Shown here: piece by piece, positions 1 through 43,029 of the stretch
How positions within the stretch are numbered: position 1 is the first letter of the stretch
Layout of the letters: each line of letters opens with the position of its first letter
DNA from: Escherichia coli
GTDB lineage: Bacteria > Pseudomonadota > Gammaproteobacteria > Enterobacterales > Enterobacteriaceae
Length of the DNA stretch: 43,029 bases
Strand: one strand, 5' to 3'
Assembly (NCBI GenBank): GCA_033901515.1
Contig: GCA_033901515.1_4984.1
The notes under the pieces: model-generated
Database searches by the model: none
Seen by the model: only the letters and a program-made list of their open reading frames with translations
Told to the model about the DNA's origin: nothing
Program-made: the position numbers and the translations under genes

Positions 1-77
1 AGTTCCCTAAAACCCTCCTACTCCTGTAACATCATTTCTTAATAGCTTTCGAATGAAAGTAAAGGTGAAGGGATAGC
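1..77. repeat. Terminal direct repeat, left copy (identical to 42953..43029)
   Basis: Bases 1-77 (agttccctaaaaccctcctactcctgtaacat...aaaggtgaagggatagc) are repeated exactly at 42953-43029; the match stops at the window edges. Confidence 0.9.
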
Positions 78-296
78 CAAAGAGATAGCGCCGGATAGCG
101 CTGGATAGTGGGAGTGCGCCCTAGTGGGGAGCGCGCAGCGTAGCATAGAATCGGCACAATGTAAAGCACTAGCGATAGCACCACGGCGCACTAGGCGGCC
201 CGCTATGGCCCACACTATGGCCCCACAATGCTGGCACTGGAAGCCCGCAATAGGCGCACAAAATAAGCAAGACGGAGCGCGTCCCCACGGCCCACC

Positions 297-329
297 TAGT
301 GCCTCCCTAGTGCCTCCCTAGTGCCCCTA
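297..329. repeat. Tandem 11-bp repeat (tagtgcctccc x2 plus a degenerate third unit)
   Basis: Direct reading of 297-329; non-coding terminal region. Confidence 0.8.
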
Positions 330-440
330 CAAGGAGCGCATAGCAATAGGCATAGGATAGCACCAGCGATAGCCATTAAGCCGCGCAGCGAGCTTCTGCG
401 GCCCTCCTGGTGCGCCCTAGGCGGCCATATAGACGTCCAG

Positions 441-464
441 CCATCTAGCCATCTAGCCATCCAG
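441..464. repeat. Tandem 9-bp repeat (ccatctagc x2.5)
   Basis: Direct reading of 441-464. Confidence 0.8.
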
Positions 465-470
465 ACGGCA

Positions 471-481
471 CCCCCCCCCCC
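471..481. repeat. Homopolymer C run of about 11 nt
   Basis: ggca-ccccccccccc-tcc at 467-484. Confidence 0.8.
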
Positions 482-602
482 TCCTTTATACGCTAGACAC
501 CCCCTATGGGGGCAATTGGGCGCGTTGAGGGTGAGGGAGGGCCTCGCGTGAGTTTAATAAATTTCAGGTCCAGGTATAGACGTGCACCCAGAGCCCCTAC
601 AG

Positions 603-643
603 GGATACCCATGGATACCCCAGTAGTTGCCTAGTAGTTGCCT
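603..643. repeat. Paired short direct repeats (ggataccc x2; agtagttgcct x2)
   Basis: Direct reading of 601-647, just downstream of the last gene on the minus strand. Confidence 0.7.
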
Positions 644-649
644 AGTGCT

Positions 650-23824: not shown

Positions 23825-26293
23825 TCAGCAGAAGAAGAACGGAGATTCTAGCACTTGCCGGATGTCCAGAGTACCAACCGCAGGCATATCCAGGTCCGTC
23901 AGGTCTGCCCCCGCTGCAGCAGCAGCTCTAGTAATATCTCCCAGAAGGTCGTGCTCCTCATACAGCTTCACAAACTGTTCGCGGATGTGTCGGTGCAGAG
24001 CATCAACATCGGATGCATGAGTAGCCAAGGAGTCGTGAATAGGCACAATATCAAGTCCCTCCGCCGCGCAGAGTACCATCATCAAGTGCGTACTATCCAG
24101 ACTGTGCACAAAGTTCGGAGCGATCCCAGAGGCTGCCTTGCGCTTATTACACGTTTTAAAATCACGGTTATGCACCAGTACAGCGGATAGGTTCATACAG
24201 TCAATACGGACACGTACCTCTTCCCTCTGAGAGTACCGGTTCATCACCAGCCCGCCCAGCGGGGTCTTCCACTGCAGGTGCTGGCTAGCAGGTACGCGCC
24301 TAGCTAGATTCTGCAGATACCCCATAGCTGCGGCAGCTGCCGGGTTAGCTTCCTCAATAGCGCTACGCATTCTAGGGGCAAGGTAGCAGGATAAGTTCCA
24401 GAGACTGTGCGTGTCTGTTCCTTCATACCCCTCTTCACAGGCCCCTGCAAAGATGTAGTCGCTGCAGCTGCGCACCGTGGCGCTGTAGAAGTAGGTCATG
24501 CTAGGACGCTTGGTCATGCTTCGCGTGATTTCGTTCTCTCTCCAGTATGTGCTCTGGATAACGAAATCCTCTTTGTCCAGGTCCAGTATCACCTTCTCGT
24601 CCGTACGGCGCTTCACGTCCATATACAGGTCCGCTTTCTTGTCGTTACCCTCCCAGTACAGGTTAGTCAGGCGCCCGCCTACAGGGTCTCTCAGGAGCGC
24701 TGAGAGGTGCTGACCACCTGAGTTTGTAGCATCCATAGCAACTGGGATTCGGCTAATATACTCTTCTGGGCATCCAGAACGTACCGCATTAACCAAGTCA
24801 ATAGCGGCTGCCAGGAAGCACCAAGGGCTGTCGGCGGAGGTAAAAGCAGGGCAATCAAAAGGAGAATCCGCGAGCTGCTCAATCTCTGCAAAGTTTGCAT
24901 CAACCCAAGCTGCACGGTCTTCGAATAGGGTTTTGTCATAACCAAAGCAGGTAGCGACGTGCACTTTAAGCCAGAATAACCCCCTCTCTCCCAGAGGTTT
25001 ACCTCGTCCGAATTCAAGAAGTGCCTTCTGCAAATCAGAACCTTGTGGGTGCAGAGAGGACTTGAAGTACAGCCGGTACCGCCAATCCACACAGGTTGGG
25101 AAGTACAAGGCTTTCTCATCTTTGAATTCCTCTGCCATCTCTAGCGTGGTCAATAGGCTACGTAGTTGCGACACACGTTTACGGTCGGCGCTGTACCATA
25201 AGGACATACGCGTCTTCCACTCTCCGAAGCGGTCGAGTTCCTCCTCGGTGTAATTCTCTTTTGGTACACCATCTAAGTACCACTCAGGTTTCGGCTCTGG
25301 CACTGAGCGCGGCATACCTACACCAATACCTAAGGCCCGTGCTTCTTGTACCAGTTCCAGTACTCGCTTATTAATGCGATAAGGAGTTTCCTGCGCCTTA
25401 TTAAGTGCCTTCTTGATACCGTCCGCAGACTTAAATGCTTCCGCTACTTCACGCAGTCTGGCGCGGTCAATGTGCGAGTTGTGGTACGTCCCACGGTTAT
25501 CGATTGGGGTGAGGTATCCACCATCCCACAGTGTAGTATGCGACACCGGCGGTACCAGCATCGGAGGCTTCATAGTTACAGTATCAGCAGATTCCACTAA
25601 CTGCTGAAATGCTTCCATAACATTATCTGCGGGATAGAGCATACTCAAGTTCCCGCTACCAGTCTTCCACTGGAACAGCCCTGTCTCAAACACTGCGGAA
25701 CACAGCAGACGTCCCACAGAAATATTCTGAGCGTTGGTCCAAGGCTCATGCCCATAGTGCACGTTCTCAGCGCTGGCGCGGAGCGTACGCAGAATGTGCG
25801 TAGGCGACTTAGTACGGCGCTCAGTGAGGTATTCATATACCCGGTCCATATACGCTGGGGCAACATTACGTAGCTGCAATGCCAGCAGCTCTGATTGTAC
25901 GTTCCTACCCAGTGCAGACATTACCGCCTGAGCAGTCTGGCGGCGACTAGCGGACTCGCCAGGGGCAACACTGAACGCCTCAAACATTGTGCACAGGCTC
26001 AGGGTAGTCAGGACATCCAAGGGAACTAAGCGCAAGAACCGGCGGTACTTTCCGCCAATACCTGGGGCTTTGGTGTTTCGCATTTCATCAATAGCTGTAG
26101 AGGCCACGTCATACGCAGAGGTGAGCATGCGCTGAGTCATTGGCAGGTTCATAATCCCGCCGTTCTGCAGAGCATCAGTAATTAACTTACGAGCACGCTC
26201 AATACCTCGAATTTTATAGGTCTCTTCAAGCTCCAGCTGGCGCTGCACCAGTGCTTCCTCTGGTACTACAACCGTATTCAGGGCGCTAATCAT
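23825..26293 (-). CDS. Single-subunit DNA-dependent RNA polymerase (T7 RNAP family)
   Basis: 822 aa; PVAMDATNSGGQHLSALLRD aligns with T7 RNAP [20 protein letters not shown] (catalytic Asp); IVPIHDSLATH aligns with T7 HDSFGT (second catalytic Asp); RBS AAGGAG. Confidence 0.9.
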   Translation of the reverse strand: MISALNTVVVPEEALVQRQLELEETYKIRGIERARKLITDALQNGGIMNLPMTQRMLTSAYDVASTAIDEMRNTKAPGIGGKYRRFLRLVPLDVLTTLSLCTMFEAFSVAPGESASRRQTAQAVMSALGRNVQSELLALQLRNVAPAYMDRVYEYLTERRTKSPTHILRTLRASAENVHYGHEPWTNAQNISVGRLLCSAVFETGLFQWKTGSGNLSMLYPADNVMEAFQQLVESADTVTMKPPMLVPPVSHTTLWDGGYLTPIDNRGTYHNSHIDRARLREVAEAFKSADGIKKALNKAQETPYRINKRVLELVQEARALGIGVGMPRSVPEPKPEWYLDGVPKENYTEEELDRFGEWKTRMSLWYSADRKRVSQLRSLLTTLEMAEEFKDEKALYFPTCVDWRYRLYFKSSLHPQGSDLQKALLEFGRGKPLGERGLFWLKVHVATCFGYDKTLFEDRAAWVDANFAEIEQLADSPFDCPAFTSADSPWCFLAAAIDLVNAVRSGCPEEYISRIPVAMDATNSGGQHLSALLRDPVGGRLTNLYWEGNDKKADLYMDVKRRTDEKVILDLDKEDFVIQSTYWRENEITRSMTKRPSMTYFYSATVRSCSDYIFAGACEEGYEGTDTHSLWNLSCYLAPRMRSAIEEANPAAAAAMGYLQNLARRVPASQHLQWKTPLGGLVMNRYSQREEVRVRIDCMNLSAVLVHNRDFKTCNKRKAASGIAPNFVHSLDSTHLMMVLCAAEGLDIVPIHDSLATHASDVDALHRHIREQFVKLYEEHDLLGDITRAAAAAGADLTDLDMPAVGTLDIRQVLESPFFFC

Positions 26294-26434: not shown

Positions 26435-26671
26435 TCACTCGGTGTCAATACACTCCCCCTTGTGCTGCTCATACAGCTCTAAGTACTTGTCAGATTTAGC
26501 AATATCCTGCTCTAGCTTATCCTTGTTACCAGCACGGAGTCTGTACTTGAGCCGATTTCCCAGACAGTACCCGTAGAATTGCTCTTGTGTCATGCTGCGG
26601 GCAATCACAGAAATAGCTTCCAAGTCCGGAAAGAATTGGTAGTGTTTAGGCGAATTTACTGCGTCACTCAT
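26435..26671 (-). CDS. DUF3310-like small phage protein
   Basis: 78 aa; SPKHY ... CLGNRLKYRLRAG matches my recollection of the DUF3310 pattern. Confidence 0.5.
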   Translation of the reverse strand: MSDAVNSPKHYQFFPDLEAISVIARSMTQEQFYGYCLGNRLKYRLRAGNKDKLEQDIAKSDKYLELYEQHKGECIDTE

Positions 26672-27090
26672 TTAATAGTCTCCCGCGCTTTACGTCGAGC
26701 TCTGGCCTTGCGTGCCTTGAGCTTCTGTGCCTGTGCCTGTTCTTCCGGCGTCTTATATGTATAGTATAGCATATCCGTCGGTTCCCGGTCTAGGTAGTCG
26801 GCAACCCTACGCAGAGATTCAGCAATAGCCCTAGAAGATTGCATGCTACCAACAATCCAGCGCCCAGCGGCAGATGCCACCTTGCCCTCCCCTCCATTGC
26901 ACGAGCGATGAAGAGCACCCCGAATACGCCCAGTAATATGACAGTGGTCAACGACAACAGAATCACCAGTCACCCCCTTGATCGTGAAGTCCAAAGGTTT
27001 ACCACAAAGGAGGCATATACCTCCCTGGTCTTTGGCAAGTTTAATAGCCACAGAACGAATCTGTGCCCGTGTAATCTTTCTCAAGGTCAC
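26668..27090 (-). CDS. Endonuclease VII (T4 gp49-like junction-resolving enzyme)
   Basis: 140 aa; CLLCGKPL ... DHCHITGRIRGALHRSCNGGEG parallels T4 endo VII CLICQREL ... DHDHELNG..VRGLLCNLCNAAEG; apparent GTG start. Confidence 0.75.
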   Translation of the reverse strand: MTLRKITRAQIRSVAIKLAKDQGGICLLCGKPLDFTIKGVTGDSVVVDHCHITGRIRGALHRSCNGGEGKVASAAGRWIVGSMQSSRAIAESLRRVADYLDREPTDMLYYTYKTPEEQAQAQKLKARKARARRKARETIK

Positions 27091-27284
27091 AGTTCAATCT
27101 CCCCAACTAAATCCAACATAGCATTGTCGTGAATGAGAGAATCCAAATGCTCAACTGTTCTTCGATGTGTTTTGGGTGCTCGTTCACGCAACGCGTCCAG
27201 AATAGTTTCCAGTTCATCATGTTTCCCCTCGTAGTATAACTCAATCGCCCGCAGGCTCATTTCCTTCGCAGACATCTTCGCCAT
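27087..27284 (-). CDS. Hypothetical protein (about 65 aa)
   Basis: I prefer ATG 27282-27284 (MAKMSAKEM...); overlaps the 3' end of the exonuclease gene by about 44 nt. Confidence 0.35.
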   Translation of the reverse strand: MAKMSAKEMSLRAIELYYEGKHDELETILDALRERAPKTHRRTVEHLDSLIHDNAMLDLVGEIEL

Positions 27285-28209
27285 TGTCTGGGTGCTCCTG
27301 TATCCACTGTATGTGCTGTTTATGGTACTCGTGCAGCGACTGCACCCAGTCACGTAGACTGGGAGTAGTCAACAGTGACATCAGATACTGATAGGCAGAA
27401 TCTGATTGGGAGCGCCGCAGGAACAGGCATTCAGCCTCTGCGAGTACATCTTGGTTGTTTCTAGCATAAGCCGCTACAACGAACTCTGCGGCGTCTTGCT
27501 CTGAGGTAATAGGGTAGATAGCATCAAAGGCTGTTCGCTTGCCACAGAGCTTCCCATCAAGCAAGGTGATACCTTTGACGTTATCGGCATCGTCTCCAGC
27601 TAGCATCTGCCACCAGAAGAACTTCAACCCATGCGCTCGTACTGGCATGGCCTGGGTGTCGTCCCACTCAATCCAGCCGAAGGGATCCTTCAGTGCAGGC
27701 CACACTGTACCGGTTGGAATATCAAATCTAGCCATGGGGCTGAGCCAGGAATCTTTATCCTGTGACATCAGAATACCACGTTCTCCGAAAGTGTATGAAT
27801 CCATTACGAACAAGTCATCCGCCTCGAAGAAGTCACTACTAACTACCTGGATACCTTGCTCATAGTACTGGTCTGGATTCTCAATTAAGTGCCGCTTCAA
27901 TGGCGCCTTTAGAGGTAGCTCCTGCCGATTAATGCGCTGCCCCTGGTAGGGCTTAGCCGTAGGGAGGTGCCATCGCAAGCACTTGGCGCATCCCGTAGGT
28001 GTTAGATACGCCACTGCTTCTGAGCAACCAACCAGGAACATATCCTCAAGCACTAGTTGATAGAAGCGGCGTATTGCGGTATCCAGACGTTTCACTGTAG
28101 CAGCGGCTTTGTACACGCAAAAGTCCGCGTCGTACAACAGAATCTTCCCAGCGTTCTGCGGAGCTAACTGCTCTGGGAGCTGGGACAAGTCAACCCCGTT
28201 GATAATCAT
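27241..28209 (-). CDS. 5'-3' exonuclease (T7 gp6 / FEN-like)
   Basis: 322 aa; KILLYDADFCVYKA vs T7 gp6 GILVMDGDWLVFQA; SQDKD vs SCDKD; GDDADN vs GDITDG; RBS GGGGG. Confidence 0.7.
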   Translation of the reverse strand: MIINGVDLSQLPEQLAPQNAGKILLYDADFCVYKAAATVKRLDTAIRRFYQLVLEDMFLVGCSEAVAYLTPTGCAKCLRWHLPTAKPYQGQRINRQELPLKAPLKRHLIENPDQYYEQGIQVVSSDFFEADDLFVMDSYTFGERGILMSQDKDSWLSPMARFDIPTGTVWPALKDPFGWIEWDDTQAMPVRAHGLKFFWWQMLAGDDADNVKGITLLDGKLCGKRTAFDAIYPITSEQDAAEFVVAAYARNNQDVLAEAECLFLRRSQSDSAYQYLMSLLTTPSLRDWVQSLHEYHKQHIQWIQEHPDNGEDVCEGNEPAGD

Positions 28210-28760: not shown

Positions 28761-28776
28761 GGCCCCAGGTGGGGCC
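28761..28776 (-). other. GC hairpin (GGCCCC-ACCU-GGGGCC on minus-strand RNA)
   Basis: Perfect 6-bp GC stem downstream of the 28800..29633 gene; no U-tract. Confidence 0.4.
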
Positions 28777-28799
28777 GTATTAGTTTAGGTTATGGTTGA

Positions 28800-29633
28800 T
28801 TAGGCTTGAGGTGCAGCGGGCGCTGCTGGCGCTACAGGAGCTACAGGGGCCGCTGGAGCCACTGGTGCAGCCGGGGCTGCCGGAGCTGCCGGAGCAGCAG
28901 GAGCAGCAGGGGCCGCTGGGGTCTGCATAGACTGAGGACTCGGAACCGAACCGGCATTCAGCATAATATCCAACGCACTGCCTGGGAAGTCAACAGCCTT
29001 GTACATGTCTTCCTGAATCCAGTTTTTACTCTTACCATCGTCCTTGGTACCTTCGATATATAAGCTATCCCAGGTTTCTTTGGTCGGATTGTTCCACAGG
29101 AACAGCTTAATCTCGGAGGCATCCAGAGCCGGCATCTTAATAGGCTCACCGGTGTTCGGGTCGAACTTCGGAATCGGACGGATTGCCGCGAGGTCTACAA
29201 TGTTAGACTTCTTAACTGCTGCGCTGGTGTGCTCATCTACTGGGAATACAAATGCTTGTCCCAGTCGCTGTGCAGCGTGTTTAATGCTGCCATCATAGTT
29301 GAGCTTGTCGAAGAATTTCTTGAAGCCCGCACGCTCAAAGTTGCTGATGGTCATCGGATACGGACGGATACGTTTCACCTCACCGTTAGGGCCATACACT
29401 ACAATCCCGATACGCACATTCGCTGCTGCAGGCTTACCAGTAGGCTTACCGCCCTTGGTCGGCAGGCGCTTACCAATTTCCACATACTCGGTGAAGTAGC
29501 CATAGTACTCACCCTTCGGCAGCAGTACATCCTCGTACGCACCGCCCTGGGCGGTCTCGGTCATATCAACTTCTTGTGTTTTAATCGCAGCAGCAACCAG
29601 GGAGTTCAGAGTGTCCAGTGCATTCATAGTCAT
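28800..29633 (-). CDS. Hypothetical protein with Pro/Ala-repeat C-terminal tail
   Basis: 277 aa; C-terminal about 45 aa is PAAPAAPAAPAAPAAPVAPAAPVAPVAPAAPAAPQA, encoded by imperfect 9-bp tandem repeats at about 28803-28920. Confidence 0.6.
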   Translation of the reverse strand: MTMNALDTLNSLVAAAIKTQEVDMTETAQGGAYEDVLLPKGEYYGYFTEYVEIGKRLPTKGGKPTGKPAAANVRIGIVVYGPNGEVKRIRPYPMTISNFERAGFKKFFDKLNYDGSIKHAAQRLGQAFVFPVDEHTSAAVKKSNIVDLAAIRPIPKFDPNTGEPIKMPALDASEIKLFLWNNPTKETWDSLYIEGTKDDGKSKNWIQEDMYKAVDFPGSALDIMLNAGSVPSPQSMQTPAAPAAPAAPAAPAAPAAPVAPAAPVAPVAPAAPAAPQA

Positions 29634-29684
29634 ATAATTATGTCCTCGTTTAGTTTAAATAAAATTTATGTGCAGATGCAGGGC

Positions 29685-30665
29685 TTAACGGTTACGTCCA
29701 ACCCACCTGCCGGAATCATCGAGCAGCATCGGAATTAACTGCGGACAACCCTCTGTGATTACCAGTACGCCTAGGATTGGTTTCTTACGGGTCAGCCTAC
29801 CGTATGCAAAGGCCATACTCTTACGGTCAATCAAACACCCCGCGTATGCGCCGAAATACAACGCTGTAGAAGATGCTGCATATTGCACTTCGAATCTGCC
29901 ATGCTCATGCCCCAAGACCAAAGAAGTGCGCTCATGCGATGCATTAAGCATGAAGTCACCAGATACCTGATGCTGGAAGCGGACCGGTCCGAGCGGTGTA
30001 TTGAGCACCCAAGCATCGGCCCACGACCAGGACGGGGCACCGTGCTCAGGGAACAAGATATCGCGGTACTTCTTAATAAATTGCACCGGCAAACCGTGAG
30101 CCTTGGCGCGACGATATACCAGACTCCCGTGATTGGAATCGCAAACCAATAGATTCGGGAAGAGTTCATGCAGTTGCTCCAGTACTAACTTAGCCTTCTC
30201 CAGTTCCACCCCAGCACTATCTAGGTTAGGATCAGAGTCATGAAAGCTGATGGCATGTCCGTCAGTCTCATCACCTACCTGTACCACCATGTCCGGACAA
30301 TATTCATCCCGCACACTTTTCAGGAAGTCCATGGCATCTACGTGAGTATAAGGAGCATGCAAATCACCCACAACAAGAATACGGTGACAGGTACTAGGAA
30401 CGCTAGTATTTCCAATGTCGTCGGTTGGGCTCGGCTGAATAAGCTTACGAGCTTCCTGTAAACCACGGTTAGCATTCGCTTTACTCCCCTTGTTGTCCAT
30501 GAAGATGCTGCGCCAGTAACGCACAAGCTGGCGGGACACGATTACGTCTCCCTTGCGAAATTTGTTATTGTACGCAATAGCTGCATCAGTGTTATTGAGG
30601 AAGCTACCAAGAATTTGTTGGTGCTCTTCTTTGGTCCACAGTTTGATTAGACTAACACTTGCCAT
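29685..30665 (-). CDS. Calcineurin-like metallophosphoesterase
   Basis: 326 aa; VVGDLHAPYTH (D-x-H), VVQVGDETDGHA (GDxxD), VCDSNHGS (NH) in the canonical order of the family. Confidence 0.7.
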   Translation of the reverse strand: MASVSLIKLWTKEEHQQILGSFLNNTDAAIAYNNKFRKGDVIVSRQLVRYWRSIFMDNKGSKANANRGLQEARKLIQPSPTDDIGNTSVPSTCHRILVVGDLHAPYTHVDAMDFLKSVRDEYCPDMVVQVGDETDGHAISFHDSDPNLDSAGVELEKAKLVLEQLHELFPNLLVCDSNHGSLVYRRAKAHGLPVQFIKKYRDILFPEHGAPSWSWADAWVLNTPLGPVRFQHQVSGDFMLNASHERTSLVLGHEHGRFEVQYAASSTALYFGAYAGCLIDRKSMAFAYGRLTRKKPILGVLVITEGCPQLIPMLLDDSGRWVGRNR

Positions 30666-30667
30666 TA

Positions 30668-31096
30668 TTAGGCCTCCTTAATAATTTGACTGACGCGAGA
30701 TTGTACTACACCGTATTTCGCAGCAAGCACGTACTGATTAGCGTGTTTAGAACGAGGAACATACTCCCGGCGAATCTGCTCTACAGTAGACTTGGAAATC
30801 TTATGAGCTTCTCGGCCCCTATCTACCTTATCTTGCATGTTGTCTGCCCTGCTGCCCACCAGAAGATGCTCGGGATTAATACAACGGGGATTGTCACATG
30901 AGTGTCTAATCACCTGCCCGTCTATATCCGCATAGGTTATACCGTGGTGGCGGACGTAAACCACTCGATGATATAGGCGCATCTTTCCGTCACGTTTAAC
31001 TAACGCATACCCTCCTTTTAGAAGGCTCCGGCTTTTGCCGTGGTCTATACATTCTGACACTGCATGCCTCTCTTGTGTTGTTCCTACTCGTATCAC
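30668..31096 (-). CDS. HNH endonuclease (free-standing, homing-type)
   Basis: GGYALVKRDGKMRLYHRVVYVRHHG ... VIRHSCDNPRCINPEHLLVGSRADN is an HNH_3-like pattern, with a C-terminal HTH-like segment. Start uncertain: GTG 31096 or GTG 31060 (RBS GAGAGG). Confidence 0.75.
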   Translation of the reverse strand: MIRVGTTQERHAVSECIDHGKSRSLLKGGYALVKRDGKMRLYHRVVYVRHHGITYADIDGQVIRHSCDNPRCINPEHLLVGSRADNMQDKVDRGREAHKISKSTVEQIRREYVPRSKHANQYVLAAKYGVVQSRVSQIIKEA

Positions 31097-31223: not shown

Positions 31224-31445
31224 TTACTCCACTATAAGTTTGTACTCCCCGGAGAAGAAGGTAATACCGTCCCCAGGCTTCTCTGAGTTATTATCTGGAT
31301 TGATTAATTCCACCTCCCAGAGTTCAGGGTCATAAGATATCACTCGATGCTGAGTGCCTGGTGCAAAGTAGTCACGATGTCTGGGCTCTAATGGTTCCGG
31401 CCCAAGTCCTAGTATTTCCACAATACTGCCTGGTTTAATAGTCAT
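31224..31445 (-). CDS. Hypothetical protein (73 aa)
   Basis: ATG overlaps the DNA polymerase stop (ATGA). Confidence 0.5.
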   Translation of the reverse strand: MTIKPGSIVEILGLGPEPLEPRHRDYFAPGTQHRVISYDPELWEVELINPDNNSEKPGDGITFFSGEYKLIVE

Positions 31446-33832
31446 TCTACTTTCTCCTTACTGTACATACTCATACCCATTTCAGCTTCCGCCGGGAACG
31501 GGACCTCACCAATGATGCCGTAGTTAGGCCAGAGCTGGTGGATACGCTTAGGTGCATCCTCCATACACTGCTTAACCAACAGGCTCGCCTCTCTGCCTAC
31601 TTCCGGATTAGCACTATCCAGATACAATGCATCGTGCACGTTCGTAATCAAGCACACCTGATTATCAAACCAATCACGTGCCAGCATTGCACGCAGAACC
31701 ATACCAGCTGCTACCGCCATCAGGAAGAACGCCTCGCCCTGACACCAGTAGTTAGCCATCTCGGTTTCCTTGTAGTCCATTACCTTCTGCTTACGCTGCC
31801 CAGGGACGACCTCCTTCCATTGCTCCTTCTGGCGGAAGCTGTAGCGTGCTCCTGCTGGACTAGTCCAGGTGCCGATGCGGTAGATGCGATAACTGCCATC
31901 ATCCGCTTGCTCCCGGTACATACGCCCCGCTGCCCCAGTGCGCTCTACCTCTTCCTTGACAACAGCGCGGAAGCCAATTGTTTGCGGGAACAGCGCAGCC
32001 TCGTTGTCCAAGAAAGCCTGTGCGAATTCCACCGTACATCCAGCAGCAAACGCAATCCCCTTAGCCGTAGCGCCATACTGGGCTGCAAAACTAGGAGCCT
32101 TAATACCTGTACGCATTGCCTTCCAAACCGGATGCAGCTCATGCTTCTTGTTGTGGCAGCGATCATATACTTCTTCATATGGTAATTTCTCACGGAAAGC
32201 TAGGCGGTAACAGTGCATATCGGTACCTGCCTGCAGCAACCCTAGTAGCTTAGTGTCTCCGGTGTGTACGCAGGACATGACCACTTCCAGCGCCGAGTAG
32301 TCAACTTCAGTGATGCGTCCGTTATCGCCGAATCGGCTGGTGAATACCTGCTTCACCTTGGATTTAGCCACCCCATCCCCATCCTCATCCGGGCGGGGTA
32401 GGTTCTGCAGGTTCGGGTTAGAACTGCTAAGGCGCCCAGTTACAGTGGCGCTGGTATTCAAACGGTGATGGATAATACCTGAACCGTCTTCTCGTTCTGG
32501 GATTACGTATTGCAGCATCCCCTTGCGCTCTTTGACACGTCCCTCAGAATCAAGAACCTCCCTTAAGTAGTAAGTTCCGGTGTCCTTCTCCAGAGCACCC
32601 AGCTCGTTCACCAATCGACAGAACTCAAATCCATGACGTGCTAAGGCTTCCATTGCATCTGTGCTGGTGCTGTAGACTGGTGTCCCATCCTGCAGGCACC
32701 GGGCTTGCCTGAACTCTCCACGCTCAGCATACTTCTCTCGAAGTACTTCAGGGAGTTCTTGGATGTTAACCAGGCCCGGACAGAAGTAAAGGTCGTCCTC
32801 CCACTTAAGTTTCTCCTCCTCTGTATCCATACGGAATACTTTGGGAAGTCCCTTGTTCTTACCGGACTTGTATAGCGCTCTCGGATACGTCCACTCCGGC
32901 TGCCAGTCGGACACATCAATGTACTGTACAGTTCCGTTGACGTCTGCTAAGTAGGCGTCGTACTTAACGTACTGCGGAGGGTCATAAGGAACCTTCTTGC
33001 GGTACTTGATAGGTCCACCGTATACCAGTGCAGACATATGAAAGTCCGAGCCGAAGTTGAAATCCAGTGTCTCCGGCAAGTCCTTCGGTATGTACTGCTG
33101 CAGCTCCTGTTTAATCTCCAGGATACGCTGCTCCTGCTCCTCTTGGTTCTTGCGAGCAATAGGCATATTCACGAACAGACCAAACCATTCACAGTATGCC
33201 CAAGCCAGCAGCGCGTCCATGCGTTCCCACACGTACTGCATCTGATTACGCTGGGCGAACGTAGCGCACTGGCCGTAGAAGCACAGGGCTGTGTTCGGGA
33301 TATCCCCGTTAACTAGGTAGTCGTGCAGCAGCACCGGGTCAATCTGGGAGGTTAACACGCCCTGCTCCCAGAGAATCTTAACCCCATCTACTTTGTGCGT
33401 ACCACCATACTTAGGAGCCGTCTCGTCCAGTGACGGATACATGCTCTGAAAGTCCGAGGCGATGTATTCCCCGTGCATTGTGCAGAACACCCTGCCGCCG
33501 CGCTTGAGGAAGGCTTCGAACTGTTGTCTCTGGTACGTGAGGAACCAGGAGATTTCGTAGGCGGCATTGTGCGCAACAATAAGCCAGCAGTCCTCCGGGA
33601 TATTGAGCCATCCCGCAGGTCCTCCTGCACTGTTCGCACGAATAAAGTCCTCTCGGGACTCGTAGCGTACTGCCTGTGTAATACCCACAGTTGTTGTTCC
33701 GTCTGCCTGCGTCGTATCAATGCGCCACGCTGACTCCACAACGTAGTTATCCGGGCAGTACGGGCTTGCTTTAGAGCCGTAATATTCATGGTTCTCTGTC
33801 TCTAAGTCAATGTGCATTATACTGGTTGTCAT
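31442..33832 (-). CDS. DNA polymerase, family A (T7 gp5-like) with 3'-5' exonuclease domain
   Basis: 796 aa; Exo I HIDLETEN; motif B RTGIKAPSFAAQYG; motif C ITNVHDALYLD; RBS GGAGGT. Confidence 0.9.
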   Translation of the reverse strand: MTTSIMHIDLETENHEYYGSKASPYCPDNYVVESAWRIDTTQADGTTTVGITQAVRYESREDFIRANSAGGPAGWLNIPEDCWLIVAHNAAYEISWFLTYQRQQFEAFLKRGGRVFCTMHGEYIASDFQSMYPSLDETAPKYGGTHKVDGVKILWEQGVLTSQIDPVLLHDYLVNGDIPNTALCFYGQCATFAQRNQMQYVWERMDALLAWAYCEWFGLFVNMPIARKNQEEQEQRILEIKQELQQYIPKDLPETLDFNFGSDFHMSALVYGGPIKYRKKVPYDPPQYVKYDAYLADVNGTVQYIDVSDWQPEWTYPRALYKSGKNKGLPKVFRMDTEEEKLKWEDDLYFCPGLVNIQELPEVLREKYAERGEFRQARCLQDGTPVYSTSTDAMEALARHGFEFCRLVNELGALEKDTGTYYLREVLDSEGRVKERKGMLQYVIPEREDGSGIIHHRLNTSATVTGRLSSSNPNLQNLPRPDEDGDGVAKSKVKQVFTSRFGDNGRITEVDYSALEVVMSCVHTGDTKLLGLLQAGTDMHCYRLAFREKLPYEEVYDRCHNKKHELHPVWKAMRTGIKAPSFAAQYGATAKGIAFAAGCTVEFAQAFLDNEAALFPQTIGFRAVVKEEVERTGAAGRMYREQADDGSYRIYRIGTWTSPAGARYSFRQKEQWKEVVPGQRKQKVMDYKETEMANYWCQGEAFFLMAVAAGMVLRAMLARDWFDNQVCLITNVHDALYLDSANPEVGREASLLVKQCMEDAPKRIHQLWPNYGIIGEVPFPAEAEMGMSMYSKEKVE

Positions 33833-33893: not shown

Positions 33894-34229
33894 TCACTTG
33901 ATTGGTGGAATATCAATAGACTCTAGCAGCGGCTGCTGCAGTAGGTAAGTGTTATACTCCTGTATCGCCTGCACCGCCAAGTCCCGCAGTCGCAACGCTT
34001 TGTTTACGTCCCAATCAGTACGAGAGAACACTGCACTGGGGGATACTAGGGAGAATGCCTCTGGGTTAAAGTGAAAGGTAGGTTCCTTTGATTCGACCAG
34101 CTGTATCATCGCCTCGCTTGCGTTACGAACGGTGTATACACCACCCCTATCCACACCGGTACGGTAAGCTGTCTCACGGGCTATGTCAGCATCTCGCCGT
34201 ACTTTATCACCAATTTTAAAATTACACAT
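33894..34229 (-). CDS. Hypothetical protein (about 111 aa) with N-terminal K(I/V)GDKV ... YTV module
   Basis: I prefer ATG 34227-34229 (MCNFKIGDKV..., RBS GAGGGG); shares an N-terminal module with the 36480..36968 protein. Confidence 0.5.
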   Translation of the reverse strand: MCNFKIGDKVRRDADIARETAYRTGVDRGGVYTVRNASEAMIQLVESKEPTFHFNPEAFSLVSPSAVFSRTDWDVNKALRLRDLAVQAIQEYNTYLLQQPLLESIDIPPIK

Positions 34230-35502
34230 TAATCTGCCCCTCATTAAATCGGCATCTACCTGGGTCGAATGCTACCTCGAATTGCAGTAGCGACTCCTTA
34301 CCTGATAGCGCCATCTTGTTCTTAGGTGTACTGATACCGCGGATGTTTTGCATGTGCGGCTGCTCGTTCCTGTCCAAGCACCCCATCATAATTGCCAAGT
34401 CCAAAGCACCTTGTACGCCAATCTTACTCTGCTTCATTGCCGTGAGCGGCGGAAACAGTAGGTTGTAACCTTCGAGTGAAAGCTGCATAGTACCGATAAC
34501 TGCACAATCGTTCTCGCACCCCAGGATACGTAGCTCCTGCCACTTCGCCTCTAGATTCTGGTGTTCACTCTCCATAGTACCGCCACGGATATTAGCCACC
34601 ATGTCTATGATTATTACCGCCGGGCGCATCTCTTCCATGAGCGTAGAGATTTGAGCCATAGTAAGAGAGTGTGCCGCCTTGATACGAATACGGTCGGCCC
34701 TGCCTACTTTCTCCAGATAGGCTGGCACAAACTCTTGCCTACTGTGCCTGTCCTTAATCTCAGCCAGAGTCCAATGCAGCGCCGCTTGATATACCCTCGG
34801 CACTGTACGCGTCGCCGGGCCTTCGTTAACCAACCACAGAATCGGGCGGTCCCCGTATACTTCAGGTTGTTGCTGCATCTGCTTAGCAAAGTCCACGGCA
34901 ATAGCAGCGAGTAGACTAGTTTTACCAGAATCAACAGGGGCAGCAACGGCGATGCAATCACCGCCGCGAAGCCCACGAATGCTATTAGACAGTTGCTCAA
35001 ACACACCCAGTTTAAGTCCGCCACTTTCATCAGTCGCGGCAAGTATTTCATCAACACTTCCGCTCTCCCATTCCAGTAGCGAATCATGAACAGCAGCACC
35101 ATCACCGTACTTGCGCTGGAGGTGTTTCATCTCCAGCAGATAATCAACCTCCTCGCCGTCTTGGTAGCGCTGCGTTAGCGCCGCCACCTCCCCGCTGTAT
35201 GCTAACTCATTCAGTGTCTGAACAATCCCCACCACAGAATCCTGTGGCACGGCTTGTACTCCCCGCATAAGCTCGTCCATAATCACCCGCTCTTCACGGG
35301 ATAGATGTCCAGCACGGAGGTTGAGCATACTCTGCATCGCATCCCACTGCACCTCCTGGTGCTCCGGGTACGTATTCCAGTACAACCCCACCCAGTCCAG
35401 TAGGTTCGAGGTGTCCGGCGCTAGCATGGACTTGGGTATCTGCTCTCGCAGTCGGTTCCAGACCTTCTGCGTGCACATCGCCTTAACTACTATTAGGTCC
35501 AA
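34222..35502 (-). CDS. DnaB-like replicative DNA helicase
   Basis: 426 aa; Walker A AAPVDSGKTSLL; apparent TTG start with RBS GGAGG. Confidence 0.75.
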   Translation of the reverse strand: MDLIVVKAMCTQKVWNRLREQIPKSMLAPDTSNLLDWVGLYWNTYPEHQEVQWDAMQSMLNLRAGHLSREERVIMDELMRGVQAVPQDSVVGIVQTLNELAYSGEVAALTQRYQDGEEVDYLLEMKHLQRKYGDGAAVHDSLLEWESGSVDEILAATDESGGLKLGVFEQLSNSIRGLRGGDCIAVAAPVDSGKTSLLAAIAVDFAKQMQQQPEVYGDRPILWLVNEGPATRTVPRVYQAALHWTLAEIKDRHSRQEFVPAYLEKVGRADRIRIKAAHSLTMAQISTLMEEMRPAVIIIDMVANIRGGTMESEHQNLEAKWQELRILGCENDCAVIGTMQLSLEGYNLLFPPLTAMKQSKIGVQGALDLAIMMGCLDRNEQPHMQNIRGISTPKNKMALSGKESLLQFEVAFDPGRCRFNEGQINV

Positions 35503-36284
35503 GTTAATGCCTCCAGTATCTCTTTGATTTCTGCGTCCTTAGGATCCGCAGCGAAGTGGTGTTCTCGGCACTGCATGAACGGGCGCAGTGCTCGGCGTGC
35601 TGCTGCTACCCCAGCATGCCCCGCTGGGTCGTTGTCCAACATTAGAATCACTTCAGGGCGATTCTGAATCAGCCAGGCCCTTAACTGCGTGGGCAAGCGT
35701 GTACCCAGCATAGCTATAGCCTGCACGTTCAACGCACTGTAGCTCGTAACTGCGTGCTGTATCTTCAGGGCTGAGAGTAAGTCCTCTGTGAGCACGACCT
35801 TTAGAGGAGCGCCCGCAGCTACACCCGGTGCTACGGCAGGTCCCACGGCAGCGAAGGGTATTGGCTGGCCGTACATTACCCACTTCGGTTGCTGTCGGGC
35901 ATGAACAGCACGGCCCAGTACAGCACCCCCGACACGGAATATTATCCGCTGTTTCTCTTTGCTCCATTCTGCATCCCCCACCATTTCAGGCATGATTCCT
36001 TTTGAAGCAAGGAATCCGTAAATAAAACTCTGCGTTTCCGCAGGCGCTTGGCTAATGCAAATTGCATCTGCAGGTGCAGAGGGCTGCACCCTCGGCTCTT
36101 CCTGTAACTGTATGCGCTGGTACTGCTTGCGCTCCTTGCCTACCTGTTTGCAGCGGTGGCAATAGTATTCCCAGGCATCCGGGTTATTGTAGAGCACCCC
36201 GGCGGCGTCCCTGCCGCAGCACCGAAAGCGTGCCCTCTGCCCCACGGCCAGGCGCTTGCACGCTCTAAGCCAGGGCTGGTCCAT
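35493..36284 (-). CDS. DNA primase (zinc-ribbon plus TOPRIM)
   Basis: 263 aa; N-terminal Cys cluster FRCCGRD ... YYCHRCKQ; TOPRIM-like VVLTEDLLSALK and ILMLDNDPAGHAG. Confidence 0.7.
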   Translation of the reverse strand: MDQPWLRACKRLAVGQRARFRCCGRDAAGVLYNNPDAWEYYCHRCKQVGKERKQYQRIQLQEEPRVQPSAPADAICISQAPAETQSFIYGFLASKGIMPEMVGDAEWSKEKQRIIFRVGGAVLGRAVHARQQPKWVMYGQPIPFAAVGPAVAPGVAAGAPLKVVLTEDLLSALKIQHAVTSYSALNVQAIAMLGTRLPTQLRAWLIQNRPEVILMLDNDPAGHAGVAAARRALRPFMQCREHHFAADPKDAEIKEILEALTWT

Positions 36285-42724: not shown

Positions 42725-42787
42725 CTAGGGATAGCACTAGGGATAGCGCTATACAGCCAATGCTAACCAATACTAGCCAATGCTAAC
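42725..42787. repeat. Short direct repeats near the genome end (tagggatagc x2; agccaatgctaac x2)
   Basis: Direct reading of 42721-42790; GATAGC-type words also recur at 71-112 and 172-178. Confidence 0.7.
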
Positions 42788-42904
42788 TAATACCATCTAG
42801 CACTGCATAGAGCAGCACGCAGTGACGTAACGTAAGTGAAGTCACGGAGTGATGCGGTGACTATGTAGGTAATGCTTACTCCCTACGGTCGTAACATAGG
42901 GCAT

Positions 42905-42934
42905 TACTAGTGAATACTAGTGAATACTAGTGAA
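42905..42934. repeat. Tandem 10-bp repeat (tactagtgaa x3) abutting the terminal repeat
   Basis: Direct reading of 42905-42934, followed by degenerate tagtagtaagtagtatgt. Confidence 0.85.
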
Positions 42935-42952
42935 TAGTAGTAAGTAGTATGT

Positions 42953-43029
42953 AGTTCCCTAAAACCCTCCTACTCCTGTAACATCATTTCTTAATAGCTT
43001 TCGAATGAAAGTAAAGGTGAAGGGATAGC
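42953..43029. repeat. Terminal direct repeat, right copy
   Basis: Exact 77-bp copy of 1..77. Confidence 0.9.

What the first reader, a model, noticed from the sequence alone, without database searches (positions are those of the whole stretch)
28800..29633. Protein with a long Pro/Ala repeat tail encoded by tandem DNA repeats
The last ~45 residues are nearly pure (P-A-A/V) repeats, encoded by imperfect 9-bp tandem repeats. The composition resembles flexible Ala/Pro linkers such as those between lipoyl domains, but here it is C-terminal. By position the gene could be the ssDNA-binding protein of the replication module, with the PA tail replacing the acidic tail of T7 gp2.5; that is speculative. 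The repeat is a likely site of length variation.
Basis: partly seen in the sequence, partly recalled or inferred. Interest (0 to 1): 0.45.

Follow-up and report, generated by a model that had tools for sequence, protein, structure and literature searches.

The report
Probable phage SSB with proline-alanine tail
A conserved "hypothetical" gene of KP34/phiKMV-type phages most likely encodes their unrecognised single-stranded-DNA-binding protein, and in this lineage it ends in 13 proline-x-alanine units instead of the usual acidic docking tip.

Summary
Window 28800-29633 (minus strand) encodes a 277-aa protein whose residues 239-277 are 13 in-register P-x-A tripeptides (117 nt).

The 9-nt DNA periodicity is only what the peptide repeat imposes, because synonymous positions are randomised. 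Six sequenced close relatives carry 12-15 units, so the tail does vary in whole units.

The window is a Drulisvirus (KP34-like Autographiviridae) genome read in reverse. The gene lies between the DNA polymerase and the 5'-3' exonuclease.

It belongs to PHROG 862 (unknown function) and is a syntenic homolog of Pseudomonas phage LUZ19 Gp21. Gp21 is a highly abundant late-early/middle protein of unknown function.

Distant family members end in the bacterial SSB docking tip (Caulobacter phage Cd1: ...DDIPF; others DDDIPF), sometimes after a Pro-rich linker. No other SSB was found in the window.

Best reading (about 0.6): this is the phage SSB. The P-x-A tail corresponds to the disordered linker, and the acidic tip has been lost. 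It is not a T7 gp2.5 relative. ssDNA binding is untested.

The parts
28800..29633 (-). Complete CDS, 277 aa plus stop. Member of PHROG 862 and the LUZ19 Gp21 family.
   Evidence: ORF call. PHROG 862 E=1e-81. 36% identity to LUZ19 Gp21, E=6e-42.
29517..29633 (-). N-terminal segment, residues 1-39: a helix at 5-19, then the conserved D-M-T-E...G-G motif (D23 invariant; G30 and G31 at least 90% conserved). Model confidence is low here.
   Evidence: Alignment A1. AlphaFold secondary structure and pLDDT.
29193..29516 (-). Predicted OB-fold core, about residues 40-147, with strands at 41-56, 70-80 and 86-89, helices at 103-111 and 120-123, and strands at 127-136 and 142-146.
28947..29192 (-). Family-specific C-terminal subdomain, about residues 148-229. 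It carries the most conserved motif of the family, (K/R)-L-F-L-W-x-x-P-T-K-E-T-W-D-S-L...S-K-N-x-x-Q-E...G-S-x-L (F178, W188, G218, S219 invariant in A1; W188, Q207, G218, S219 invariant in A2).
   Evidence: Alignments A1 and A2. Model pLDDT 88-95.
28920..28946 (-). Pro/Ser-rich spacer, about residues 230-238 (SVPSPQSMQT region), between the last helix and the repeat.
   Evidence: Translation. pLDDT below 50.
28803..28919 (-). (P-x-A)x13 tail, residues 239-277, as 13 units of 9 nt with randomised synonymous positions. Unit number varies between relatives.
29634..29684 (-). Conserved 51-nt leader, nearly identical in 7 Drulisviruses, with GAGGA at 29643-29647 and unique within the window. A possible expression signal of unknown type.
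   Evidence: LUZ19 has an annotated phage promoter directly upstream of gp21.
28761..28776 (-). All-GC hairpin GGCCCC-N4-GGGGCC, 24 nt after the stop codon. The stem is invariant and the loop varies in 7 relatives. Only UU follows it on the coding strand, so it is more likely an mRNA 3' stabiliser or phage-RNAP pause than a classical intrinsic terminator.
   Evidence: Rhizobium phage Palo has an annotated terminator at the same position after its homolog.

Best explanation

Proposed working (inferred). An OB-fold core (about residues 40-147), buttressed by a family-specific subdomain (148-229), coats ssDNA at the phage replication fork and on the recombination intermediates made by the exonuclease and endonuclease VII encoded just downstream. 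The protein is made in stoichiometric, very high amounts.

The tail (inferred). The C-terminal (P-x-A)13 segment is the counterpart of the intrinsically disordered linker of bacterial-type SSBs. With Pro at every third residue it would favour an extended polyproline-II-like conformation, up to about 12 nm if fully extended. That would project from the nucleoprotein filament as a spacer or bristle, and perhaps as a multivalent PxxP surface.

Loss of the tip (part shown, part inferred). Unlike distant relatives that end in the host-SSB docking tip (DDIPF or DDDIPF), this lineage has no acidic tip. It therefore presumably does not plug into the host SSB interactome and must contact the phage replisome in another way.

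Shown here: the sequence anatomy, the unit-number polymorphism, the synteny, the predicted fold, and the tip motifs in relatives. Inferred: ssDNA binding, the tail conformation, and the tail's role.

For: 2. Tail logic. Relatives with the same core end in SSB-Ct-like tips. Caulobacter phage Cd1 ends ...DPLDDIPF. P0181, P0240 and P0263 end DDDIPF, P0161 DDDIPW and P0208 DDDIPY. In all, 16 of 261 sequences, spread over 7 of 17 core clusters, have such tips. P0181 has a Pro-rich linker followed by DDDIPF. Core plus disordered linker plus acidic tip is the defining SSB architecture (PMC7145534).

3. Context. The order DNA polymerase, this gene, 5'-3' exonuclease, endonuclease VII is conserved in Klebsiella, Pseudomonas, Aeromonas, Rhizobium, Agrobacterium and Caulobacter phages; in Kosakonia phage Kc261 the order DNA polymerase, this gene, exonuclease is also conserved.

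4. No alternative SSB. None is annotated in a function-annotated relative across the genome outside the late structural region. Local tblastn of E. coli SSB, T7 gp2.5 and N4 SSB against the window gave nothing below E=0.5.

5. Abundance. [quoted passage not shown]

6. Independent annotation. Two GenBank records (PP889493, PV067733) already label the homolog 'single strand DNA binding protein'.
Against: - No experiment shows ssDNA binding for any family member.
- No sequence-level link to any known SSB family was found. No member matched a Pfam SSB or DUF669 model, and all matches were weak and scattered (88 members scanned at E<=1). hhalign gave 0.15% to T7 gp2.5 and 0.4% to an N4-SSB family profile. 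There were no PDB sequence hits.
- The only curated family that relatives touch, NF046043, is named 'replication initiation protein'. The window protein itself does not reach it at E<=0.1.
- Expression of LUZ19 Gp21 in P. aeruginosa arrested growth and lowered transcription and translation by 20-25%, while host DNA synthesis was unaffected. That is not what a fork-poisoning foreign SSB would obviously do.
- This protein lacks the acidic tip that makes the comparative argument strong for Cd1-type members.
Confidence: 0.62

Rival explanations
1. An OB-fold recombination or replication-initiation factor rather than a general SSB. It could be an annealing or mediator protein that works with the downstream 5'-3' exonuclease and endonuclease VII, in the way T7 gp2.5 anneals, or lambda Beta pairs with Exo, or it could be an origin or primosome-loading factor.
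For: The gene lies immediately upstream of the exonuclease in LUZ19, Aeromonas phage Bolek and Caulobacter phage Cd1, and a few small ORFs upstream in the window. 73 of 88 diverse members match NCBIfam NF046043, 'phage replication initiation protein, NGO0469 family', best E=4e-17. The extra conserved subdomain 148-229 has no counterpart in simple SSBs.
Against: The NGO0469 name traces back to weak BLAST hits only (26% identity over 109 aa to a nanovirus Rep; 'probably the primase') in Piekarowicz 2007, so it carries no functional weight. SSB-Ct tips in relatives are a hallmark of SSBs. The phage would still lack an SSB. The two roles are not exclusive, since T7 gp2.5 performs both (annotation).
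Confidence: 0.17
2. Primarily a host-takeover protein that inhibits host gene expression, with the Pro-rich tail as the effector or interaction surface.
For: Single-copy expression of LUZ19 Gp21 causes immediate growth arrest and a 20-25% drop in transcription and translation, with DNA replication unaffected (PMC3604761). N4 SSB is a precedent for a phage SSB that also acts on host RNA polymerase (reference listed).
Against: The gene is a core gene at a fixed position inside the DNA-metabolism module in 924 phage records infecting very different hosts, whereas host-takeover genes are usually lineage-specific early genes. The tail sequence and tip vary widely while the OB core is conserved. Toxicity of an over-produced nucleic-acid binder is non-specific evidence.
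Confidence: 0.1
3. The database labels are correct: Fe-S oxidoreductase, herpesvirus-like large tegument protein, virion structural protein, or DNA polymerase.
For: These labels are attached to homologs in GenBank records.
Against: The protein contains no cysteine (sequence), so it cannot ligate an Fe-S cluster. 'Large tegument protein' reflects low-complexity Pro/Ala matches, as does the only PDB sequence hit, AKAP14, which aligns to the tail only. The gene lies in the middle (DNA-metabolism) region, not the structural region. There is no polymerase or oxidoreductase domain.
Confidence: 0.02

Closest known systems
Pseudomonas phage LUZ19 Gp21 / phiKMV gp21 (PHROG 862; NCBI PHA02030)
   Same: Homologous (36% identity, E=6e-42). 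Same position after the DNA polymerase and before the exonuclease. Same three-part build, with a long Pro/Ala/Val/Gln-rich tail of about 95 aa.
   Different: The LUZ19 tail is longer, less regular and richer in Val and Gln. The Drulisvirus tail is a near-perfect (P-x-A)13. The function of Gp21 was left open in the only experimental study.
Bacterial-type SSB (E. coli SSB; plasmid pCF10 PrgE)
   Different: No sequence similarity to Pfam SSB. An extra 80-residue subdomain. The linker is Pro/Ala rather than Gly/Gln/Pro. This protein has no acidic tip. Oligomeric state is unknown.
T7 gp2.5
   Same: Role analogue: the SSB of an Autographiviridae replication module, with an OB fold and a functionally important C-terminal tail. 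T7's tail ends ...EEADEDGDF.
N4 SSB / DUF669 group (predicted divergent OB-fold SSBs, Kazlauskas et al. 2016)
   Same: Foldseek links the model to DUF669 proteins at E about 1e-5. Same line of argument: OB-like fold, tails, and no other SSB in the genome.
   Different: No Pfam DUF669 hit in 88 members. hhalign against an N4-SSB family profile gave 0.4%.
NCBIfam NF046043, 'phage replication initiation protein, NGO0469 family'
   Same: The OB-core region of relatives aligns to it: Cd1 residues 28-152, E=3.8e-14; 73 of 88 members match.
   Different: All scores reported (Cd1 52.6 bits, LUZ19 Gp21 19.5 bits) are below the curated cutoff of 75 bits, and the window protein does not match at E<=0.1. 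The model is 171 positions long, so it has no room for this family's C-terminal subdomain and tail; only its positions 2-125 were aligned in relatives. The family name has no experimental basis.
Ala/Pro-rich inter-domain linkers of 2-oxo-acid dehydrogenase E2 chains
   Same: Composition. A weak tail-only hit to the 2-oxoglutarate dehydrogenase E1/E2 protein 8p5t (E=1.3). Expected extended, semi-rigid behaviour (established knowledge).
   Different: Those linkers join folded domains. This segment is C-terminal, strictly periodic (Pro every third residue), and variable in unit number.

Membership tests
PHROG 862 / LUZ19 Gp21 family | Significant full-length profile match | tested here: met
   E=1e-81 over residues 3-271. 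All 88 diverse members also fall in PHROG 862.
PHROG 862 / LUZ19 Gp21 family | Position after the DNA polymerase and before the 5'-3' exonuclease in a phiKMV-type module | tested here: met
   Window gene map. Relatives.
Bacterial-type SSB (Pfam PF00436 architecture) | OB-fold ssDNA-binding domain | tested here: met
Bacterial-type SSB (Pfam PF00436 architecture) | Sequence match to the SSB family model | tested here: not met
   No Pfam SSB hit for the protein or for 88 relatives at E<=1.
Bacterial-type SSB (Pfam PF00436 architecture) | Disordered C-terminal linker | tested here: met
   Residues 230-277 are low complexity with block pLDDT 47-67.
Bacterial-type SSB (Pfam PF00436 architecture) | Acidic C-terminal tip (DDDIPF type) | tested here: not met
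   The window protein ends ...PAAPAAPQA. The feature is met only in distant relatives (Cd1, P0181, P0240 and others).
Bacterial-type SSB (Pfam PF00436 architecture) | Binds ssDNA cooperatively | not testable with these tools
   Needs purified protein.
T7 gp2.5-like SSB | Sequence or profile similarity to gp2.5 | tested here: not met
   hhalign probability 0.15%. tblastn of gp2.5 against the window gave a best E of 0.58.
T7 gp2.5-like SSB | Acidic tail with C-terminal aromatic residue | tested here: not met
   The tail contains no Asp, Glu or aromatic residues.
N4 SSB / DUF669 | Match to Pfam DUF669 or to an N4-SSB family profile | tested here: not met
N4 SSB / DUF669 | Structural similarity to DUF669 models | tested here: inconclusive
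   Foldseek-BFVD E=1.1e-5 and 1.2e-4, but TM-scores of only 0.29-0.50.
NCBIfam NF046043 (NGO0469 family) | Score at or above the curated cutoff (75 bits) | tested here: not met
   Window protein: no hit at E<=0.1. Cd1 homolog 52.6 bits, LUZ19 Gp21 19.5 bits. 73 of 88 relatives match at E<=0.01; the two scores reported are below the cutoff.

The most novel reading that the evidence does not exclude
The (P-x-A)n tail is a distinct kind of SSB C-terminal module. It would be a rigid polyproline-II rod made of overlapping PxxP motifs that has replaced the acidic SSB-Ct tip. It would drive SSB-SSB cooperativity or condensation into a phage replication compartment, and insulate the phage fork from the host's SSB-interacting proteins. 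Unit number (12-15 in the six relatives examined) would act as a tunable length. The family as a whole would then show three interchangeable replisome-docking solutions on one OB core: acidic tip, D-x-L-A-x-L-G-L tip, and PxxP rod.
Probability: 0.2. Interest if true: 0.65.

Novelty: new variant of a known kind. Interest (0 to 1): 0.45.

Why it matters
phiKMV-type phages (Drulisvirus, Phikmvvirus, Friunavirus and others) are among the phages most used therapeutically against Klebsiella, Pseudomonas and Acinetobacter. Homologs of this gene are labelled 'hypothetical', or given misleading names, in nearly all of the phage records listed from the 924 that carry one.

Assigning the SSB would complete the replication module of these phages. 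It would correct labels such as 'Fe-S oxidoreductase' and 'large tegument protein'. It would also explain why LUZ19 Gp21 is so abundant.

The family is a natural experiment on what SSB tails do. One conserved core carries either the host-type acidic tip, a different LGL tip, or a tipless periodic Pro-Ala rod. That makes the disputed roles of SSB linkers (cooperativity, PxxP contacts, condensation) testable by tail swaps in a small phage.

Tried and rejected
- Pfam scan of the protein and of 88 diverse relatives: no family.
- PDB sequence searches with the single protein and with two profiles: only low-complexity or chance hits.
- hhalign of the family profile against T7 gp2.5 and N4 SSB single sequences, and against a 42-sequence N4-SSB family profile built for the purpose: no signal.
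- Foldseek against the PDB: nothing significant, though SSBs rank first.
- Search for the conserved upstream leader as a repeated phage promoter: it is unique in the window.
- The sigma-70 and intrinsic-terminator scans gave only background-level hits.
- Literature searches for an experimentally defined SSB in Drulisvirus, phiKMV or LUZ19 found none. Supplementary tables of Kazlauskas 2016 were not available.
- The idea of recent DNA-level repeat homogenisation was rejected by the codon-shuffle test.
- The 'Fe-S oxidoreductase' label was rejected because the protein has no cysteine.

Full report
1. THE OBSERVATION

The finding's coordinates are exactly one ORF on the minus strand, 28800..29633, ATG start, 277 aa. 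A GAGGA ribosome-binding site lies 9 nt upstream of the ATG.

Residues 239-277 are 13 in-register tripeptides: PAA x9, PVA x3, PQA x1. They are encoded by 13 x 9 nt at 28803-28919. Tandem Repeats Finder detects period 9 (77% matches) and period 27 there.

One refinement concerns the DNA. The 9-nt units are 68% identical over all pairs and 73% identical for adjacent pairs. That is what the peptide repeat alone would give with random synonymous codons (nulls 0.68-0.70). All four Ala codons and all four Pro codons are used. This is a protein-level repeat with drifted third positions, not a recently homogenised DNA satellite.

2. WHAT THE WINDOW IS

The gene matches 223 phage records at 80-95% nucleotide identity, almost all of them Klebsiella or Escherichia Drulisvirus (KP34-like Autographiviridae). 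The window is such a genome in reverse orientation.

On the minus strand the order is:
- primase (35493-36284)
- DnaB-like helicase (34222-35502)
- DNA polymerase (31442-33832)
- HNH endonuclease (30668-31096)
- metallophosphoesterase (29685-30665)
- this gene
- two small ORFs
- 5'-3' exonuclease (27241-28209)
- endonuclease VII (26668-27090)
- phage RNA polymerase (23825-26293)

.

GenBank labels for the homolog are inconsistent. Most say 'hypothetical'. Others say 'Fe-S oxidoreductase', 'large tegument protein', 'structural protein' or 'DNA polymerase', and a few records say 'single strand DNA binding protein'.

The protein has no cysteine, which excludes an Fe-S protein. The tegument label is a low-complexity artefact. 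The same artefact produces the only PDB sequence hit, AKAP14, which aligns to the tail only.

3. THE FAMILY

The protein belongs to PHROG 862, of unknown function (E=1e-81). It has no Pfam family, and neither do 88 diverse relatives.

tblastn with residues 1-238 finds the core in 924 phage records: Klebsiella 235, Pseudomonas 178, Acinetobacter 164, Pectobacterium 55, Vibrio 47, plus Ralstonia, Stenotrophomonas, Rhizobium, Xanthomonas, Caulobacter and others. This is the phiKMV supergroup.

A profile search of 1.84 billion cluster representatives gives 500 hits at E<=1e-30.

Synteny (DNA polymerase, this gene, exonuclease, endonuclease VII) holds in LUZ19, Aeromonas phage Bolek, Rhizobium phage Palo, Agrobacterium phage Atu_ph03 and Caulobacter phage Cd1; in Kosakonia phage Kc261 the order DNA polymerase, this gene, exonuclease holds.

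LUZ19 Gp21 is a direct homolog (36% identity, E=6e-42). Lavigne et al. [quoted passage not shown] It was conserved but of unknown function. Expressed alone it was growth-arresting, with 20-25% less transcription and translation and unchanged DNA synthesis.

No later paper in the searchable library assigns it a function.

4. STRUCTURE

A 40-sequence alignment gave an AlphaFold model with mean pLDDT 82.8. Blocks from residue 41 to 220 are mostly above 90.

The element order matches the canonical OB fold:
- strand 41-56
- strand 70-80
- strand 86-89
- helix 103-111 (plus 120-123)
- strand 127-136
- strand 142-146

This is followed by an ordered subdomain at 148-229 and a low-confidence tail.

Foldseek-PDB ranks SsbB, PriB, SSB and mitochondrial SSB first, but none is significant.

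Foldseek-BFVD finds family members first. It then finds Xp10 p37L, many uncharacterised phage proteins, two DUF669 proteins (E about 1e-5 and 1e-4) and one annotated SSB. Kazlauskas et al. 2016 linked DUF669 to the N4 SSB and argued that it is a divergent OB-fold SSB family.

At the sequence level I could not confirm any of these links.

The one curated model that relatives touch is NCBIfam NF046043, 'replication initiation protein, NGO0469 family'. 73 of 88 members match it, with best E=4e-17, and the scores reported are below the curated cutoff. The name derives from weak BLAST hits in a 2007 prophage survey.

5. THE TAILS ARE THE MOST INFORMATIVE COMPARATIVE EVIDENCE

All intact close and mid-distance homologs have Pro/Ala/Val-rich tails of about 35 to more than 100 residues. 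They show strong period-3 proline: P(Pro at i+3 | Pro at i) = 0.54 against a background of 0.27.

More distant members with the same core end differently.
- 16 of 261 sequences, spread over 7 of 17 core clusters, end in the bacterial SSB docking tip. Caulobacter phage Cd1 ends ...DPLDDIPF. Metagenomic members end DDDIPF, DDDIPW, DDDIPY, SDVPF or DELPF.
- 27 sequences, 26 of them in one cluster (alphaproteobacterial phages Palo and Atu_ph03), end in D-x-L-A-x-L-G-L.
- A few carry both motifs.

P0181 has a Pro-rich linker followed by DDDIPF. OB core plus disordered linker plus acidic tip is the defining build of SSBs, and the tip recruits partner proteins (PMC7145534 and PMC10164576 abstracts).

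The (P-x-A)13 segment here therefore corresponds to the linker. The window's core cluster (74 sequences: 64 PxxP-type, none acidic, none LGL) has lost the tip.

6. LENGTH VARIATION

In six sequenced relatives the tail starts at the same residue (239) and ends with the same PAAPQA. It contains 12, 13, 13, 14, 15 and 15 units, against 13 in the window. One unit in VLCpiA1a carries a P-to-L change.

Full-length megablast matches are 825, 834, 843 or 852 bp, always in steps of 9.

Position 1 is Pro in all but one unit (the P-to-L change above), and position 3 is Ala in nearly all, with occasional Thr. Position 2 is A, V, T, S, Q or G.

It occurs in whole peptide units under protein-level constraint.

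7. MECHANISM

Best-supported reading, about 0.6: this is the phage SSB.

The inferred steps are as follows.
- The OB core coats ssDNA at the fork and on recombination intermediates.
- Pro at every third residue matches the three-residue turn of a polyproline-II helix (established knowledge). The tail is therefore probably an extended, fairly stiff projection of up to about 12 nm.
- It offers 12 overlapping PxxP motifs. Whether these contact OB folds, as proposed and disputed for E. coli SSB, is unknown.
- Lacking the acidic tip, the protein should not engage host SSB partners.

Evidence against this reading is listed in the structured fields. The main points are that no binding assay exists, the fold scores are moderate, and the LUZ19 Gp21 expression phenotype affected transcription and translation rather than replication.

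Rivals:
- a recombination or initiation factor using the same fold (about 0.17, and not exclusive of SSB function);
- a host-takeover protein (about 0.1);
- the literal database labels (about 0.02).

8. NOVELTY AND VERDICT

The gene itself is a well-sampled core gene, and a few automated annotations already call it an SSB. It is not a new object.

What appears new is the reasoned assignment: the fold, the SSB-Ct tips in relatives, and the absence of another SSB. Also new is the picture of one OB core carrying three alternative C-terminal solutions, of which the Drulisvirus (P-x-A)n rod without an acidic tip is an unusual SSB variant.

I rate it a new variant of a known kind, with moderate interest.

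Noticed in passing
Relatives: L008:3983-4873 (Rhizobium phage Palo), L009:3938-4810 (Agrobacterium phage Atu_ph03); proteins P0221-P0267: A second conserved C-terminal tip, D-x-L-A-x-L-G-L (Palo DDPLADLGL, Atu_ph03 ADDLAEIGL). It occurs in 27 of 261 family members, nearly all in one core cluster. A few proteins carry it just before an acidic DE[IV]P[FYL] tip (P0232, P0243, P0237). Its partner is unknown. From memory it resembles the C-terminal clamp-binding hexapeptide QLVLGL of E. coli Pol IV; this was not tested.
   Followed up: partly
window 28761-28776: An all-GC hairpin GGCCCC-N4-GGGGCC lies 24 nt after the stop codon. The stem is invariant and the loop varies in 7 Drulisviruses, and the RBS of the next gene follows immediately. 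It is the only such hairpin in the window. Palo has an annotated terminator at the same place.
   Followed up: partly
window 29634-29684: The 51-nt leader upstream of the gene is nearly identical across 7 relatives and unique in the window. LUZ19 has an annotated phage promoter at the equivalent place. The promoter type was not identified.
   Followed up: partly
window 29634-29700 compared with L001:8785-8949: Most of the relatives examined carry a 54-aa ORF between the phosphoesterase gene and this gene. In the window the phosphoesterase stop codon sits where that ORF ends, so the small ORF appears to be deleted.
   Followed up: partly
window 30668-31096: An HNH homing-type endonuclease gene lies between the DNA polymerase and the phosphoesterase. 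In relative PP889493 an HNH gene sits upstream of the polymerase instead, so this looks like a mobile insertion.
   Followed up: no
P0070 (Klebsiella virus 2019KP1 KP1_19) and P0031: These homologs read out of frame within or before the Pro-Ala tract (for example ...APAAPATLLLRQHRQHRLRQ...). This is either sequencing or assembly error, or real frameshifts in the GC-rich repeat.
   Followed up: no
window 28796-29063, plus strand: Plus-strand ORFs of 44 and 85 aa overlap the repeat. They are by-products of the GC-rich periodic codons, not genes.
   Followed up: no
window 84-646 and 42725-42955: Clusters of short tandem repeats (periods 7-20) lie at both ends of the window. They may be genome-end features of this linear phage genome.
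   Followed up: no
NCBIfam NF046043: The curated name 'phage replication initiation protein, NGO0469 family' rests on weak 2007 BLAST hits. The model aligns to the OB core of this probable SSB family, so the name may be misleading.
   Followed up: partly
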